Source of the DNA: a virus
Taxonomy: Duplodnaviria; Heunggongvirae; Uroviricota; Caudoviricetes
IMG/VR virus record: IMGVR_UViG_2703718802_000013
Coordinates: 1-9,563 of that record
DNA: 9,563 bases
Strand: one strand, 5' to 3'
Part shown: piece after piece, positions 211 through 9,563 of the stretch
Layout: each line of letters begins with the position of its first letter
How positions within the stretch are numbered: the stretch's first letter is position 1
The notes under the pieces: generated by a model
Databases searched by the model: none
Told to the model about the DNA's origin: nothing
Seen by the model: the letters and a program-made list of their open reading frames with translations, nothing else
Position numbers and translations under genes: made by a program

Positions 211-287
211 GGGGAACATATGACACATAAAACAAAGGCGACCTGGGGCGGTCGCCAATGGGAAAACACTAAACATAAGCCCGAACA

Positions 288-503
288 TCATAGCGATTTG
301 CTGGCTGGTGGGCAATTATCTTGCTTGTTGGGGCCGTATTGTGCTGCCATTTTCATCCGTTCAGAACGTGAATATTTTTTTAGAAACTCATCAAGGACAA
401 AAGCGCATGGTGCGAATCTTTCTGATTCATGCTCTGGCGCCATATTTTCGTGCTCTCTGTCCGTTTTTTGCGATGGTGTATTGGTTGATTCTTTGTTGGT
501 CAT
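288..503 (-). CDS. small hypothetical protein (71 aa), partner gene of RHH cassette 1; paralog of 954-1181
   Basis: Track ORF starting MTN. Its C-terminal region (FVLDEFLKKYSRSER) resembles that of the 954-1181 product (FALEDFVDKYPRRLK). It sits 57 nt downstream, on the minus strand, of the RHH gene 561-734, and the intergenic element is conserved with the one before 954-1181. The SD is weak. Confidence 0.4.
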   Translation of the reverse strand: MTNKESTNTPSQKTDREHENMAPEHESERFAPCAFVLDEFLKKYSRSERMKMAAQYGPNKQDNCPPASKSL

Positions 504-560
504 TGTGTGTACCTGTAAAGCAATGCGCCGTAGTACCTCACGCCACGGCGCTGATGTTTT

Positions 561-734
561 TTATCCTTTGGGTTCAATACCGCGTTGCTGTAATTCTTTT
601 CGGAGTACTCGCTTGATCCAGGTGGCTAAAGAAGTGTCACCGTCTGCTTTCGCTGCCTCTTCAAGTTGTGCTCTGAATTCTTCTGGTAGCCGCATTTGGT
701 ATGGAGGCGATCGCTTTTCCAATGGTGTTGACAT
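561..734 (-). CDS. ribbon-helix-helix (Arc/MetJ-like) DNA-binding protein, 57 aa
   Basis: Not in the ORF track because it is under 60 aa. My minus-strand translation is MSTPLEKRSPPYQMRLPEEFRAQLEEAAKADGDTSLATWIKRVLRKELQQRGIEPKG. The beta-strand then two-helix pattern (YQMRLPEEF...LATWIKRVLRKEL) resembles Arc-type repressors. The start codon overlaps a palindromic operator. Confidence 0.5.
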   Translation of the reverse strand: MSTPLEKRSPPYQMRLPEEFRAQLEEAAKADGDTSLATWIKRVLRKELQQRGIEPKG

Positions 735-776
735 GGTAATTACCCTTAATTACTATAGTTACATGGTAATTACCAT
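733..776. promoter_or_regulatory. two copies of a palindromic operator-like site (ATGGTAATTACC at 733-744; perfect 14-bp palindrome ATGGTAATTACCAT at 763-776)
   Basis: Read directly from the sequence. GGTAATTACC is self-complementary. The two copies are 30 bp apart and overlap the start codon and presumptive promoter of the minus-strand RHH gene 561-734. Confidence 0.45.
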
Positions 777-792
777 TGTACTTACCGTTATA

Positions 793-834
793 CAAAAAAC
801 AACGCCCCGCAGTGGTGGCTCACATACGGGGCGT
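793..834 (-). terminator. hairpin (ACGCCCCG / CGGGGCGT, 8-bp stem) followed by a T-run on the minus strand
   Basis: Stem arms at 802-809 and 827-834 with a 17-nt loop. The plus-strand A-run 794-800 reads as a T-run on the minus strand. It lies downstream of minus-strand gene 954-1181. It could instead be an RNA structural element of the duplicated module. Confidence 0.4.
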
Positions 835-865
835 CTAACCAAACCATTAATTGAGGTAACGATTA

Positions 866-920
866 TGGCTATAAAAGAGCATAGCTTACTCTTTATACAC
901 ACACAAACGCCCCGGAAACG
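866..920 (+). pseudogene. 5' remnant of an Icd-like gene (first ~18 codons only)
   Basis: ATG at 866 with a GAGG RBS. The translation MAIKEHSLLFIHTQT parallels MVAVNHIPHLVHTQT at the start of the Icd-like gene 1604-1801. Homology is lost after about 55 nt and no FVWRF or TEREAR motif follows. Confidence 0.3.
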
Positions 921-953
921 GAATAATCCGTTTCATAGTTCGGTTTTGTGCAC

Positions 954-1181
954 TCATCCTGGCGGTCGGTTTTTGCCGGATTTAAGCCGCCGTGGGTATT
1001 TATCGACAAAATCTTCAAGGGCAAATTTTTCTGGTGGCATTAAGCGCGGCGCTGGTGGTGGTATTTTTGTTCTGGTTAGTTCTTCCTCAACTCTGGCGCA
1101 GGCTTCTGACTGCCTTTGCCGGATGATTTCATCATCTTGCGTTTGCGTGTCTTGTATTGGTGATAGTGTGTTGTTGGTCAT
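954..1181 (-). CDS. small hypothetical protein (75 aa), partner gene of RHH cassette 2; paralog of 288-503
   Basis: Track ORF starting MTN. It lies directly downstream, on the minus strand, of RHH-like gene 1239-1418, separated by a conserved ~50 bp element that contains a hairpin. Confidence 0.4.
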   Translation of the reverse strand: MTNNTLSPIQDTQTQDDEIIRQRQSEACARVEEELTRTKIPPPAPRLMPPEKFALEDFVDKYPRRLKSGKNRPPG

Positions 1182-1238
1182 GATACTGCCCTGTAAAGTA
1201 ATGCGCCATAGTACCTCACGCCACGGCGCTGATAGTGA

Positions 1239-1418
1239 TTATTCTGATTCTTTGGCCTTGCGACGCTGGCGGCGTTTGATTTCGCCGCGCATGGCAGTAA
1301 CGATAAATTGTGCGTCTGTTTCGTTTTCTTCTTTTACCAAATTCATTTCGCTTAAAACGTCTAGAGGTACTCTAGCAGTTTTTTGTTGTGACTTGTTGTT
1401 GGTTGTACCTGTTGGCAT
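1239..1418 (-). CDS. small DNA-binding protein, probably ribbon-helix-helix (59 aa)
   Basis: Shares the track ORF 1239-1586 frame, but I start it at the internal ATG at 1418, which is preceded by a strong SD (minus-strand AGGAGAACAGAG then ATG). The product MPTGTTNNKSQQKTARVPLDVLSEMNLVKEENETDAQFIVTAMRGEIKRRQRRKAKESE aligns loosely with the 561-734 RHH protein (RLPEEF...LATWIKRVLRKEL versus RVPLDV...AQFIVTAMRGEIKR). Confidence 0.45.
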   Translation of the reverse strand: MPTGTTNNKSQQKTARVPLDVLSEMNLVKEENETDAQFIVTAMRGEIKRRQRRKAKESE

Positions 1419-1484
1419 CTCTGTTCTCCTTACTGTTAGGTGGTGTTCAGTATACGGAGAAAAAAAAATAAAAAAAGACTTGAA

Positions 1485-1529
1485 GTGCAAGTCACCTAAA
1501 AGTAACCTAGATTTCAAGGTGACTTGCAC
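1485..1529. promoter_or_regulatory. perfect 13-bp inverted repeat GTGCAAGTCACCT - N19 - AGGTGACTTGCAC (operator-like) in the divergent intergenic region
   Basis: Read directly. It lies between the minus-strand RHH-like gene (start 1418) and the plus-strand Icd-like gene (start 1604). A TATACT -10-like hexamer for the minus-strand gene is at 1451-1456. Confidence 0.45.
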
Positions 1530-1530
1530 C

Positions 1531-1572
1531 AAAAAAACAACGCCCCACAGTGCTGGAACACATGCAGGGCGT
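1531..1572 (-). terminator. hairpin (ACGCCC / GGGCGT) with a minus-strand T-run; paralog of the 793-834 element
   Basis: Stem arms at 1540-1545 and 1567-1572. The plus-strand A-run 1531-1539 is a T-run on the minus strand. About 75 percent identical by eye to 793-834 and its flank. Function uncertain (terminator or RNA structure). Confidence 0.35.
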
Positions 1573-1603
1573 CTAACCACAAACACTATAGAGAGGTAAA
1601 TTT

Positions 1604-7864: not shown

Positions 7865-8278
7865 ATGGCAACGAATGAAAGCATCATGGCGCTACCGCTG
7901 GCGAGTAAATTTAAAGCAGAAGCGCGGGCAATGGCTGACAGAGGTTTATCAACCTACGAGGCCGTATATCAACTCAACAAACTGGAAGAGCAGGACAAGC
8001 CGCGCGCTGATGCGATTATGGCGCTTCATGAACATAACGACTATCAGCCGCTGTTACGTGCAATGGCAAACGTGCCATGTATTAGCGTCGATAATGCTCG
8101 TGAAATCCTGAACATGACCATAGAGCAGGAGCGCCCAAAGGTTGCGCCGGAGCTTACCGCAGCCTTTGAAAACTTTATGGACATGCACAGCCCGAAAGCC
8201 GTATCACCCGGCATGGCATACGACGGCAGAAACCAGGGCGATGAAGGCGACGTCGATCGCATACTGAAAACCATCTGA
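7865..8278 (+). CDS. hypothetical protein (137 aa), last gene of the capsid operon
   Basis: Track ORF with RBS GGGGAA, followed directly by a terminator. I see no similarity to lambda FI, FII or W. Function unknown. Confidence 0.5.
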   Translation: MATNESIMALPLASKFKAEARAMADRGLSTYEAVYQLNKLEEQDKPRADAIMALHEHNDYQPLLRAMANVPCISVDNAREILNMTIEQERPKVAPELTAAFENFMDMHSPKAVSPGMAYDGRNQGDEGDVDRILKTI

Positions 8279-8284
8279 CATAAG

Positions 8285-8307
8285 GCCGGAGAAATCCGGC
8301 TTTTTTT
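8285..8307 (+). terminator. rho-independent terminator (GCCGGA-gaaa-TCCGGC followed by TTTTTTT)
   Basis: Read directly. The hairpin is nearly identical to the terminator at 6013-6034. Confidence 0.6.
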
Positions 8308-8470
8308 ACGGGTCCTTTCCGGCATATGGACCCGTTACGGGGCGGCGACCTCGCGGTTTTTCGCTATTTATGAGCTTTTTCAGGGTGGTGGTGGTGGTTT
8401 TGTTGTTTGCTCTATCTTTATGAATAAAAAGGGAAATATAAAACCAATACACCAACCTGAAACCTTAACT
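8308..8470 (+). other. lambda-type cohesive-end site cos1: cosQ-like flank, cosN (GGGCGGCGACCT at 8340-8351), and a divergent cosB-like region
   Basis: TTACGGGTCCTTTCCGG...GTTACG-GGGCGGCGACCT-CGCGGTTTTTCGCTATTTATGA closely matches the lambda right-end/left-end junction as I recall it (TTTACGGGTCCTTTCCGG...GGTTACG-GGGCGGCGACCT-CGCGGGTTTTCGCTATTTATGAAAATTTTCCGG). Beyond about 8375 it diverges from lambda cosB, with a (GGT)n tract at 8385-8398 and AT-rich sequence. Confidence 0.7.
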
Positions 8471-8484
8471 AAGTGGGGATATTG

Positions 8485-9027
8485 ATGAAATCGCACCTGA
8501 TGAACAAAAAAACTATGGCGCAAAGCTGCCGTGTAAGTGCGACAGCGTTCGACAAGTGGGGAGTGACTCCCGTTGAACGTAAAGGCCGCGAGGCTTTTTA
8601 CGATGTTGCCAGCGTGATAGACAATCGGGTAAGCAATGCAATTGACCAGGTTACAAACGACAAAGGCGATATCGACGATGATGAACTTTTACGCGTAAGA
8701 ATCCGATTACTGACGGCCCAGGCGGAGGCGCAGGAGCTTAAAAACGAGCGCGAACGCGGCGACGTGATTGATACAGGTTTTTGCCTGTACGCGCTTTCAA
8801 AGCTGGCGAGCCAGATTTCATCAATCATGGACAGCCTCCCGCTGACTATGCAAAGGAGCTTCCCACAGATTACCCCCGCCATGCTGGATAGGCTTAAAAG
8901 GGAAGTGGTTAAAGCCTGTAATGCCAGTGCCAGAGTTGCCGACAACCTCCCACAGATACTGGCTGATTACTTGAAAGAAACAACCGGAAACGTACCGGAA
9001 AAGTTGCTACAGAAGAAAGGCGAGTAA
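8485..9027 (+). CDS. terminase small subunit, lambda Nu1 family
   Basis: Same frame as track ORF 8473-9027. LTAQAEAQELKNERERGDVIDTGFCLYALSKLASQISSIMDSLPLTMQRSFP matches lambda Nu1 LTRAQADAQELKNARDSAEVVETAFCTFVLSRIAGEIASILDGLPLSVQRRFP, and the N-terminal NKK..wHTH region and C-terminal tail also align. I chose the ATG at 8485 (GGGGA SD); the ATG at 8500 is also possible. Confidence 0.75.
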   Translation: MKSHLMNKKTMAQSCRVSATAFDKWGVTPVERKGREAFYDVASVIDNRVSNAIDQVTNDKGDIDDDELLRVRIRLLTAQAEAQELKNERERGDVIDTGFCLYALSKLASQISSIMDSLPLTMQRSFPQITPAMLDRLKREVVKACNASARVADNLPQILADYLKETTGNVPEKLLQKKGE

Positions 9028-9054
9028 CAGACGCGCAATTATTGAACAAAAATG

Positions 9055-9116
9055 AGAAAGGATCTGATAATGGCATTTTCTGGCTAAAATGCCATTATCA
9101 GATCCTTTCTTTTTTT
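9055..9116. terminator. perfect 25-bp inverted repeat (AGAAAGGATCTGATAATGGCATTTT / AAAATGCCATTATCAGATCCTTTCT) with a 6-nt loop, followed by T6
   Basis: Read directly. It acts as a strong intrinsic terminator after the Nu1-like gene. It also occupies the position, relative to the inverted cos2, where lambda has its own cosB inverted repeat. Confidence 0.6.
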
Positions 9117-9119
9117 AAT

Positions 9120-9250
9120 ATTTTCATTGTTAAACAGTCTGTTACAGAGAAGAAGAACGGATCTGACTTTTGCCGGAAAATTTTCATAAACAGATAAAAA
9201 CCGCGAGGTCGCCGCCCCGTAACGGGCCATAATTCCAGGAAGGACCCGAC
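9120..9250 (-). other. second lambda-type cos site (cos2) in inverted orientation: cosN reverse complement at 9205-9216, lambda-like cosB on the minus strand
   Basis: The minus strand reads GTTACG-GGGCGGCGACCT-CGCGGTTTTTATCTGTTTATGAAAATTTTCCGGCAAAAG...TCCGTTCTTCTTC. This matches recalled lambda cosB (CTATTTATGAAAATTTTCCGG...TCCGTTCTTCTTCG) better than cos1 does. The cosQ-like flank lies at 9217-9250 on the plus strand. Confidence 0.65.
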
Positions 9251-9281
9251 GACACCAGACTATCAGAACGATGGGGGCACA

Positions 9282-9563
9282 ATGACAGAAGCCGAACTAC
9301 TGCGATTAATCCGTCGCGTTGCCGGAATCAGCCAGCAGGCTGACGAACAGGCCACGCAGCCGGACAGCGTGACCGCCGAAAATTATGCGCGTGTGGTTGC
9401 TGAGGTGATGCGCCGTGATGGTATTGAGCTTAACGGCGTGGATATGCGCAACATACGAACCAGAGTCCTTGAGTTGCTGGCATACCGTCGCCGCGTGGAG
9501 ATGTATCGGGAGAAGGAGAAAATCACGTACCACTGGAAGAAGCCGGAGCGGTTACGGCGGTAA
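9282..9563 (+). CDS. hypothetical protein (93 aa)
   Basis: Track ORF with a G-rich RBS (GGGGG) before the ATG. It lies on the cosQ side of cos2. No recognisable homolog. Confidence 0.4.
   Translation: MTEAELLRLIRRVAGISQQADEQATQPDSVTAENYARVVAEVMRRDGIELNGVDMRNIRTRVLELLAYRRRVEMYREKEKITYHWKKPERLRR

What the first reader, a model, noticed from the sequence alone, without database searches (positions are those of the whole stretch)
8308..9250. Two lambda-type cos sites in inverted orientation flank the small-terminase gene
An exact lambda cosN 12-mer (GGGCGGCGACCT) occurs at 8340-8351 on the plus strand and again as its reverse complement at 9205-9216. About 853 bp separate them, and the Nu1-like gene lies between. 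cos1 sits in the canonical position upstream of Nu1 but has a divergent cosB ((GGT)n tract). cos2 has a more lambda-like cosB (TTTATGAAAATTTTCCGG, TCCGTTCTTCTTC and a long inverted repeat), yet it points toward the 3' end of the Nu1-like gene and has no terminase gene of its own. Terminase packages directionally from cosB, so a circular element with both sites could be packaged in either direction: by its own Nu1-like protein at cos1 and by a helper lambdoid terminase at cos2. Alternatively, cos2 could be a recombination scar or the edge of a neighbouring element.
Basis: partly seen in the sequence, partly recalled or inferred. Interest (0 to 1): 0.8.

Follow-up and report, generated by a model that had tools for sequence, protein, structure and literature searches.

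The report
Two facing cos sites in PICI
This phage-parasitic island carries two facing lambda-type DNA-packaging (cos) sites around its own small-terminase gene, a layout already published for the related island EcCICFT073; here one site matches the island's own terminase and the other copies a real prophage's site, which may explain why such islands keep two.

Summary
The exact lambda cosN 12-mer occurs at 8340-8351 (+) and 9206-9217 (-), where chance predicts none. Each copy lies in a 76-nt inverted repeat that also contains cosQ.

The window is an E. coli-type phage-inducible chromosomal island (PICI) with the same layout as EcCICFT073. [quoted passage not shown] I found that they also face each other, around rppA. 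So the architecture is known.

What differs here:
- The gene between the sites is a full-length Nu1-family small terminase (TerS) with an N15 gp1-like DNA-binding domain, not Rpp.
- cos1 carries an N15-type cosB. The (GGT)n tract sits exactly where the N15 R3 element lies.
- cos2 carries R3, R2 and R1 elements that match (R3 and R1 exactly) those of a real E. coli lambdoid prophage class.

Across 56 related modules the facing order never changes. cos1's cosB always tracks the encoded protein. cos2 is always a phage-type cosB, of variable class.

Best reading: cos1 is a private site for the island's own TerS, and cos2 is a public site for a helper phage's terminase. The facing orientation keeps packaged genomes unit-length. 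Function in this element is inferred, not shown.

The parts
8309..8384 (+). Left arm of the 76-nt inverted repeat (cosQ1, cosN1 and the start of cosB1)
   Evidence: 82% complementary to 9173-9248
8310..8316 (+). cosQ1 core GGGTCCT, starting 30 nt upstream of cosN1, the same spacing as in the phage cos sites compared
8340..8351 (+). cosN1, the exact lambda cohesive-end 12-mer GGGCGGCGACCT
8364..8381 (+). Block CTATTTATGAGCTTTTTC. It matches the TTTATGAAAATTTT block that is invariant in the type D cos sites compared and also present in lambda, phi80 and other phage cos sites.
8384..8409 (+). cosB1 R3-equivalent, the (GGT)n tract. Bases 48-60 counted from cosN1 (8387-8399, GGTGGTGGTGGTT) occupy the position of N15 R3 (bp 48-60, GAGGTTGTTGTTT).
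   Evidence: PMC9026076
8445..8460 (+). cosB1 R2-like element CAATACACCAACCTGA, the inverted copy of GGTTGGTGTATTG
8470..8484 (+). cosB1 R1-like element TAAGTGGGGATATTG. It is degenerate here; relatives have AAGTTGGTGTATTA.
8485..9027 (+). terS, a 180-aa Nu1-family small terminase with an N15 gp1-like N-terminal DNA-binding domain and a full C-terminal half
9049..9116 (.). Hairpin formed by cos2 R1 (9055-9067) and R2 (9098-9110). It looks like a terminator on both strands, just after the terS stop codon.
   Evidence: (dG -42.5 kcal/mol, z -8.7)
9149..9166 (-). cos2 R3, TCAGATCCGTTCTTCTTC. The core CAGATCCGTTCTTCTTC covers bp 53-69 from cosN2, the same register as the lambda R3 stretch CGTTTCCGTTCTTCTTC. 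It is identical to R3 of the E. coli Ecol_AZ146 prophage.
9175..9193 (-). Conserved block CTGTTTATGAAAATTTTCC of cos2
9206..9217 (-). cosN2, the exact lambda 12-mer on the minus strand
9241..9247 (-). cosQ2 core GGGTCCT, starting 30 nt upstream of cosN2 on the minus strand
9282..9563 (+). 93-aa ORF (PHROG 1561, function unknown). It follows cos2 in nearly every related island (all whose contig reaches that far), which shows that cos2 lies inside the element.

Best explanation
The window is an E. coli-type cos PICI of the EcCICFT073 architectural family. Its packaging module has two convergent lambda-type cos sites that share cosQ and cosN but carry different cosB recognition regions.

cos1 is the private site. 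Its N15-type cosB is bound by the island's own N15 gp1-like TerS. The full-length C-terminal half of that TerS recruits a helper phage's large terminase (TerL) to nick cosN1, and packaging runs rightward.

cos2 is a public site. It is a faithful copy of the cos of a natural lambdoid prophage class, so that class's unmodified terminase can start at cosN2 and package leftward.

Because the sites face each other, neither presents cosQ-cosN in the orientation needed to terminate packaging that began at the other. Each route therefore ends at its own cos in the concatemer and yields unit-length multiples.

Shown: the sequence anatomy, its conservation, the co-variation of cos1 with the encoded protein, and the identity of cos2 to prophage cos sites. 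Taken from literature on the homologous element: both sites support packaging. Inferred: which protein binds which site here, the TerL recruitment, the direction of packaging and the role of orientation.
For: Anatomy.

Same architecture as EcCICFT073:
- The order MCP, gpD-like, 137-aa ORF, cosN(+), packaging gene, cosN(-), 93-aa ORF holds in CFT073.
- It holds in all 56 extracted modules, with no inversion of the inner segment.
- 487 of 5426 complete E. coli genomes hold at least 80% of 8280-9290.

Published experiments on EcCICFT073:
- Both cos sites confer phage-mediated plasmid transfer.
- Deleting cos1 lowers island transfer, deleting cos2 raises it, and deleting both abolishes it.
- The cosB of cos1 is what RppA-TerS recognises.

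cos1 belongs to the encoded protein:
- The 180-aa TerS is always next to cosB type A (28/28), and Rpp is always next to type B (19/19).
- In other lineages a 194-aa TerS with a phage-21-like DNA-binding domain sits behind a 21-type cosB while keeping the same cos2.
- TerS residues 1-55 are 57% identical to N15 gp1.
- The (GGT)n tract lies at the position of N15 R3 (PMC9026076).

cos2 is a phage-type cos:
- The Ecol_AZ146 prophage has the order lysis genes, cosQ, the same cosN, identical R3 and R1 and a near-identical R2, then TerS, TerL and portal.
- The SerU-LTIIb prophage has the same R elements.
- This prophage class is found in 223 of 5426 genomes.
- R3, R2 and R1 stay invariant or nearly so across PICIs with four different cosN sequences and two prophages, while spacers vary.

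The pattern generalises:
- EcCICFT073's cos2 matches the cosB of the common EDL933-type prophage class.
- Other cos2 variants are phage-21-like or match an N15-type cosB found in an O111 prophage.

TerS C-termini and TerL N-termini fall into the same three classes. This TerS is nearest the EDL933/O111/PhiR5_1 class (48-53% identity), not the class that owns the cos2 cosB (34-38%). That fits two routes serving different helpers.
Against: - There are no packaging, cleavage or binding data for this element or for any PICI with this TerS.
- In EcCICFT073, deleting cos2 increased transfer by lambda and phi80. So cos2 can be a cost, at least with helpers that do not match it.
- I could not show that genomes carrying this island also carry a prophage of the matching cosB class. 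The one O157:H7 prophage I checked is 21-type.
- The cos2 class is partly linked to the gene type: D or E with TerS, C or A with Rpp or no gene. That could reflect cassette inheritance rather than selection by helpers.
- 48-53% identity in the C-terminal domain does not prove TerL binding.
- The cos1 R1-like element in this window is degenerate.
- No exact IHF consensus was found between R3 and R2 of either site.
Confidence: 0.6

Rival explanations
1. cos2 is a non-adaptive by-product of cassette exchange. The cosB-terS module was acquired by recombination with phage cos regions, and cos2 is a leftover copy that is tolerated or mildly harmful. Only cos1 matters for spread.
For: Deleting cos2 increased EcCICFT073 transfer by lambda and phi80. 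cos2 classes are linked to the adjacent gene type, and a conserved junction (TTTTGTTCAATAATTGCGC) marks where cassettes were swapped. No co-occurrence with matching prophages was shown.
Against: A leftover would decay. Instead cosQ, its 30-nt spacing, cosN and all three R elements are intact in every module and nearly invariant, while spacers diverge, even across lineages with four different cosN sequences. Gene-less islands keep two phage-type cos sites and nothing else. The EcCICFT073 double deletion loses the residual transfer that the cos1 deletion alone retains.
Confidence: 0.2
2. cos2 acts mainly as a decoy or interference site. It draws the helper's own terminase onto island DNA, or causes unproductive cuts, which lowers helper phage yield rather than packaging the island.
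For: cos2 copies the helper-class cosB exactly. PICIs of this family are known to interfere with helper packaging (PMC6739421).
Against: A terminase bound at a complete cosQ-cosN-cosB on a concatemer should package it, so a decoy role and a packaging role are hard to separate. Published interference in EcCICFT073 maps to Rpp, not to cos2.
Confidence: 0.1
3. The R2-R1 hairpin is chiefly a bidirectional transcription terminator between terS and the 93-aa ORF, and the neighbouring cosN2 and cosQ2 have no packaging role.
For: The hairpin has a 26-bp stem (dG -42.5 kcal/mol, z -8.7) followed by T runs on both strands, directly after the terS stop codon.
Against: This does not explain the conserved R3, the TTTATGAAAATTTT block, cosN2 or cosQ2 with phage-like spacing. 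The same hairpin lies upstream of TerS in true prophages, where it is cosB. The two roles can coexist.
Confidence: 0.1

Closest known systems
EcCICFT073 cos1/cos2 pair (Fillol-Salom et al. 2018 ISME J, PMC6092414; 2019 Mol Cell, PMC6739421)
   Same: Same island family and gene order. Two cos sites share lambda-type cosQ and cosN and lie between the 137-aa ORF and the 93-aa ORF. They converge on the packaging-specificity gene. The published cos1 and cos2 sequences match CFT073 coordinates L006:2559(+) and 3309(-).
   Different: Here the gene is a full-length 180-aa Nu1-family TerS, not the 144-aa RppA. A PDB sequence search returned neither the RppC nor the Nu1 entries, and there is no tblastn match to RppA. 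cos1's cosB is N15-type rather than the Rpp type. cos2's cosB is the AZ146-prophage type rather than the EDL933-prophage type.
Phage N15 packaging specificity: gp1 and cosB-N15 with R3 at bp 48-60 (Feiss lab, PMC4669245; Murialdo & Feiss 2022, PMC9026076)
   Same: N15 gp1 is the best phage match to this TerS: 45% identity over 90% of its length, and 57% in residues 1-55. The G/T-rich R3-equivalent sits at bp 48-60 from cosN.
   Different: The sequence is GGTGGTGGTGGTT rather than GAGGTTGTTGTTT. cos1 here also has an inverted R2/R1-like pair, which N15 lacks. The cosN is lambda's, not N15's. The C-terminal half of the TerS is closer to other prophage classes than to N15.
Lambda cos (cosQ-cosN-cosB with R3-I1-R2-R1) and Nu1
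   Same: Identical cosN 12-mer, the same cosQ core and spacing, R3 of cos2 in the same register, and R2/R1 as an inverted pair. The TerS belongs to Pfam Phage_Nu1.
   Different: The left half of each R element differs (CAGATCC against CGTTTCC). No exact IHF consensus was found. The two sites face each other, and the element has no TerL gene.
SaPI strategies: pac SaPIs that encode their own TerS, and cos SaPIs that carry the helper's cos (SaPIbov5; SaPIbov4 is reported to have two putative cos sites)
   Same: It works like both at once: its own TerS redirects the helper's TerL, and it also carries a copy of a helper cos. PMC6092414 notes the parallel with SaPIbov4's two cos sites.
   Different: Unrelated sequences and hosts. 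Here the island's TerS is of the cos (Nu1) type, and both strategies sit together in one 0.9-kb module.

Membership tests
Lambda-type cos site | 12-nt cosN cohesive-end sequence | tested here: met
   The exact lambda 12-mer occurs at 8340-8351 (+) and 9206-9217 (-). No shuffle out of 200 contained a match.
Lambda-type cos site | cosQ (GGGTCCT) at a fixed distance upstream of cosN | tested here: met
   Both sites have GGGTCCT starting 30 nt upstream of cosN, as in the phage and prophage cos sites compared.
Lambda-type cos site | cosB with R3 about 50-65 bp from the cosN start, plus an inverted R2/R1 pair | tested here: met
   cos2 has R3 at bp 53-69, and R3 and R1 identical (R2 nearly so) to a true prophage's. 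cos1 has an N15-type R3-equivalent at bp 48-60 plus an R2/R1-like pair, with R1 degenerate in this window.
Lambda-type cos site | IHF site (I1) between R3 and R2 | tested here: inconclusive
   Neither site has an exact WATCAANNNNTTR match. IHF sites are often degenerate.
Lambda-type cos site | Nicked by terminase and able to support packaging | not testable with these tools
   Shown only for the homologous EcCICFT073 sites cloned on plasmids and by deletions in the island (PMC6092414, PMC6739421).
EcCICFT073-type (Rpp) cos PICI | Island gene order with two convergent cos sites between the 137-aa ORF and the 93-aa ORF | tested here: met
   The order and orientation are the same in CFT073 and in 56 modules.
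EcCICFT073-type (Rpp) cos PICI | Encodes Rpp (139-154 aa, no TerL-binding C-terminus), which heterodimerises with the helper's TerS | tested here: not met
   There is no tblastn match to RppA in the window. A PDB sequence search returned no Rpp or Nu1 entry at E<=1. The gene here is a 180-aa full-length Nu1 homologue.
EcCICFT073-type (Rpp) cos PICI | cos1 carries the Rpp-specific cosB (GGTGACACCACCACCAC) | tested here: not met
   The window's cos1 clusters with type A, not type B.
Nu1/gp1 small terminase (Pfam PF07471) | Profile match above the curated cut-off | tested here: met
   80 bits against a cut-off of 30, E 2e-22. PHROG 57 matches over the full length at 6e-52.
Nu1/gp1 small terminase (Pfam PF07471) | N-terminal DNA-binding domain cognate to the adjacent cosB | tested here: inconclusive
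   The domain is 57% identical to the N15 gp1 domain, and it co-occurs strictly with type A cosB (28/28). Binding was not measured and no structure was predicted.
Nu1/gp1 small terminase (Pfam PF07471) | C-terminal TerL-binding domain | tested here: inconclusive
   The region aligns with TerS C-termini, at 48-53% identity to the EDL933/O111/PhiR5_1 class, and carries an extra tail of about 15 aa found only in PICI versions. No interaction data exist.
Capsid-forming PICI (cf-PICI) | Encodes a complete capsid and packaging set (TerL, portal, protease, HNH and others) | tested here: not met
   Only MCP, gpD-like, scaffold-like and TerS homologues are present. Related complete islands end after the 93-aa ORF, with no TerL or portal.

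The most novel reading that the evidence does not exclude
Gram-negative cos PICIs use a combinatorial two-key packaging module. One cos is private and is read only by the island's own specificity protein. Here that is an N15-like TerS that brings its own TerL-binding domain, so the helper's TerS may not be needed at all. The other cos is public, copied from a particular helper-phage class, and is swapped between classes (AZ146-type, EDL933-type, 21-type, N15-type). Some islands carry two public sites and no protein. The facing orientation is required so that neither site ends packaging begun at the other. [quoted passage not shown]
Probability: 0.45. Interest if true: 0.6.

Novelty: new variant of a known kind. 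Interest (0 to 1): 0.42.

Why it matters
Two cos sites in E. coli PICIs were shown to be functional in 2018-2019, but their purpose was left as an explicit open question. The later Feiss-lab review treats only cos1.

This comparison gives a concrete, testable answer. cos2 is not 'completely divergent' as published. It is the cosB of a different, common prophage class than the lambda, phi80 and phi4 helpers that were tested. That result names the helpers to test (AZ146-class for this island, EDL933-class for EcCICFT073). It also predicts that a cos2 deletion, which helped transfer with lambda, will hurt transfer with the matching helper.

The window also shows a widespread PICI variant, present in about 9% of complete E. 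coli genomes including O157:H7. This variant replaces Rpp with a full-length cos-type TerS. That points to a different hijacking mechanism, in which the island recruits TerL directly. The variant matters for predicting which prophages mobilise these islands.

Tried and rejected
- **Invertible segment.** I tested whether the inner segment flips between the inverted repeats. In all loci examined the packaging gene keeps the same orientation relative to the MCP gene and the 93-aa ORF. Cases where the 'cos2-type' cosQ flank appears on the cos1 side are flank sequence variants, possibly gene conversion, not inversions.
- **Third cos site.** A cosN-like 12-mer with one mismatch lies about 4 kb upstream in some loci. 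It is a coding-sequence coincidence with no cosQ or cosB, and it is absent from the window.
- **PDB sequence search with the TerS.** No Nu1 or Rpp entry was returned at E<=1, so it could not be used for classification.
- **Exact R2-R1 pattern of cos2 in IMG/VR.** It found only PICI-sized contigs. The phage counterpart appeared only with BLAST against annotated E. coli genomes and GenBank phages.
- **IHF consensus.** No exact match.
- **Co-occurrence of the island's cos2 class with a resident prophage of the same class.** This could not be computed because only sampled hit lists are returned. The single O157:H7 prophage I checked was 21-type.
- **cf-PICI.** Considered and rejected: there is no TerL or portal.
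- **Edge of a neighbouring prophage.** Considered and rejected: the island continues past cos2 to attR.
Full report
**Observation**

The lambda cosN 12-mer GGGCGGCGACCT occurs exactly twice in the window, at 8340-8351 on the plus strand and 9206-9217 on the minus strand. None of 200 dinucleotide-preserving shuffles contained even one exact copy.

The two copies lie in a 76-nt inverted repeat (8309-8384 / 9173-9248, 82% complementary). Each arm also holds the cosQ core GGGTCCT, starting 30 nt upstream of cosN. That spacing matches the phage and prophage cos sites I compared.

A 180-aa ORF (8485-9027) lies between the sites. It matches Pfam Phage_Nu1 (2e-22, above the curated cut-off) and PHROG 57 'terminase small subunit' over its full length (6e-52).

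**What the window is**

The window reads, in order:
- an AlpA-like ORF
- an unknown 459-aa ORF
- DUF4222
- a DUF927 primase
- small ORFs
- a gpE-like major capsid protein (MCP)
- a gpD-like decoration protein
- a 137-aa ORF
- cos1, terS, cos2
- a 93-aa ORF

In E. coli RM10466 the same set sits between an integrase and attR inside tqsA, as an island of about 12 kb with no TerL or portal gene. This is the layout of the Gram-negative cos PICI EcCICFT073. In CFT073 I found MCP, decoration protein, 137-aa ORF, cosN(+), the 144-aa rppA, cosN(-), the 93-aa ORF, and then phoQ.

**Already known**

[quoted passage not shown] Both sites let lambda and phi80 transfer a plasmid. Deleting cos1 lowers island transfer, deleting cos2 raises it, and deleting both abolishes it. 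The cosB of cos1 is what the RppA-TerS heterodimer recognises (PMC6092414, PMC6739421).

Their printed cos1 and cos2 sequences are the two sites I located in CFT073, and cos2 is the reverse-complement one. So the facing pair around the packaging gene is a published architecture, although the papers' text does not mention the orientation. [quoted passage not shown]' [quoted passage not shown] No other paper in the library discusses cos2.

**Conservation**

487 of 5426 complete E. coli genomes hold at least 80% of 8280-9290.

A scan of IMG/VR with the cos2-side flank returned 56 loci. Together with the E. coli loci and the window, I extracted 56 complete modules. Wherever the flanking genes lie on the contig, the order and orientation are MCP>, gpD>, 137-aa ORF>, cosN(+), [gene]>, cosN(-), 93-aa ORF>. 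No inversion of the inner segment was seen. cos2 is therefore part of the island, not a neighbouring element.

**cosB classes**

Clustering the DNA downstream of each cosN gave five types.

| Module | n | cos1 cosB | cos2 cosB |
|---|---|---|---|
| 180-aa TerS | 28 | type A (28/28) | D (15) or E (13) |
| Rpp | 19 | type B (19/19) | C (10) or A (9) |
| no gene (536-637 bp between sites) | 9 | A or C | C or A (one of each in every module) |

In other PICI lineages, found through the cos2 R-element pattern, the arrangement shifts in an informative way. There the TerS is 194 aa with a phage-21-like N-terminal domain, and it sits behind a 21-type cosB. The cosN sequences differ from lambda's. Yet the C-terminal half of the protein and the convergent type D cos2 are unchanged. 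So the DNA-binding domain co-varies with cos1, not with cos2.

**What cos1 is**

- N15 gp1 is the best phage match to the window's TerS: 45% identity over 90% of its length, and 57% over residues 1-55.
- Counting from cosN1, bases 48-60 are GGTGGTGGTGGTT (8387-8399). N15 has GAGGTTGTTGTTT at bp 48-60, which linker-scanning mutagenesis defined as R3-N15 (PMC9026076).
- An E. coli O111 prophage carries the same cosB type directly upstream of its TerS and TerL.
- The PICI version next to the TerS gene (R element GGTTGGTGTATT) differs slightly from the phage version (GGTTGTTGTAT). The phage version is the one used as cos2 in Rpp islands and in gene-less modules.

**What cos2 is**

Read on the minus strand, cos2 has:
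- the conserved TTTATGAAAATTTT block
- R3 TCAGATCCGTTCTTCTTC, whose core covers bp 53-69, the same register as the lambda R3 stretch
- an inverted R2/R1 pair, AGAAAGGATCTGA and TCAGATCCTTTCT

The lambdoid prophage of E. coli Ecol_AZ146 reads lysis genes, cosQ, the same cosN, identical R3 and R1 and a near-identical R2, then TerS, TerL and portal. The SerU-LTIIb prophage has the same R elements with a different cosN. This prophage class occurs in 223 of 5426 genomes.

I aligned type D sites from PICIs with four different cosN sequences and from the two prophages. cosQ and the TTTATGAAAATTTT block are invariant, R3, R2 and R1 are invariant or nearly so, and the spacers and hairpin loop vary. That pattern indicates purifying selection on the recognition elements.

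The same holds for the other cos2 classes:
- EcCICFT073's cos2 (CATGTCCGGTT, three copies) matches the cosB of the very common EDL933-type prophage class, which has its own distinct TerS.
- Type E is phage-21-like, and some copies carry R1 as CATGTCGGGCCT, which from memory is the phage 21 R consensus.

So cos2 is consistently a copy of a natural phage cos, from a class other than the lambda, phi80 and phi4 helpers used in the published tests.

**Mechanism (inferred)**

- Route 1: the island's TerS binds cos1 and recruits a helper's TerL through its C-terminal half.
- Route 2: a helper whose own TerS recognises the cos2 class packages from cos2 in the opposite direction.

TerS C-termini and TerL N-termini fall into the same three classes. 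This TerS is nearest the EDL933/O111/PhiR5_1 class (48-53% identity) and far from the AZ146/phi4 class that owns the cos2 cosB (34-38%). That fits the idea that the two routes serve different helpers.

From established knowledge of lambda, termination requires cosQ upstream of cosN in the direction of translocation. Facing sites therefore cannot terminate each other's packaging, and each route yields unit-length multiples. Directly repeated sites 0.9 kb apart would give molecules that gain or lose the terS segment.

Cutting both sites in one unit would leave fragments whose two ends carry identical, non-complementary overhangs. That is a plausible cost, and it fits the published gain in transfer when cos2 is deleted with non-matching helpers.

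The R2-R1 hairpin (9049-9116; dG -42.5 kcal/mol, z -8.7) also looks like a bidirectional terminator just after terS. That role could coexist with its cosB role.

**Limits**

- Nothing here shows cleavage, binding or packaging for this element.
- I could not establish that a matching prophage co-occurs with the island in the same genome.
- cos2 classes are partly linked to the adjacent gene type, so inheritance as a cassette is an alternative to selection by helpers.
- The cos1 R1-like element is degenerate in this window.

**Verdict**

The architecture, however, is a published feature of this PICI family. The window is a variant of it: its own N15-like TerS in place of Rpp, an N15-type private cosB, and a prophage-identical public cosB. 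The comparative result that cos2 is always a genuine phage-class cos is, as far as the searchable literature shows, not described, and it turns the open 'why two cos sites' question into specific experiments.

Noticed in passing
window 220-1599 (+): A 459-aa ORF directly after the AlpA-like gene (1-210) has no match in Pfam, PHROGs or PADLOC. It sits in a part of the island that varies among relatives (best E. coli hits cover only 55-76% of the window), so it is a candidate accessory gene.
   Followed up: partly
window 7865-8278 (+): The conserved 137-aa ORF between the gpD-like gene and cos1 matches the C-terminal part (positions 494-567 of 583) of the head maturation protease family PHROG 53. 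The island may therefore encode a scaffold-like protein (from memory, lambda's Nu3 scaffold is the C-terminal part of gpC) alongside its MCP and decoration homologues.
   Followed up: no
L029, L042, L048, L049, L018, L031, L063, L062, L058 (IMG/VR loci): Nine related islands have only 536-637 bp between the two cos sites and no terS or rpp gene. Each carries two phage-type cosB classes, N15/O111-type and EDL933-type, in either arrangement.
   Followed up: partly
L066-L075 (IMG/VR loci): PICIs with other cohesive-end sequences (for example GGGGGTAGCCATAC and ACGGGGCGGCAGAC) encode a chimeric 194-aa TerS: a phage-21-like DNA-binding domain joined to the same C-terminal half and about 15-aa tail (…TTGNVPEKLRQQKGE) as the window's TerS. 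They keep the same convergent cos2 cosB.
   Followed up: partly
L072 (IMG/VR locus): One island has a terS remnant in which a few N-terminal codons are fused to the last ~30 codons. The cos2 R elements next to it are intact.
   Followed up: no
L059 (IMGVR_UViG_2602041657_000001): This 8.3-kb IMG/VR contig encodes MCP, gpD-like and 93-aa proteins 100% identical to the window's. Its TerS is only 93% identical and the 137-aa ORF was not detected, which suggests recent cassette exchange within otherwise identical islands.
   Followed up: no
window 8283-8308: By eye, a short GC-rich hairpin (GCCGGAGAAATCCGGC) followed by a T run lies between the stop codon of the 137-aa ORF and cosQ1. It is conserved in relatives, but the terminator scan did not report it.
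   Followed up: no
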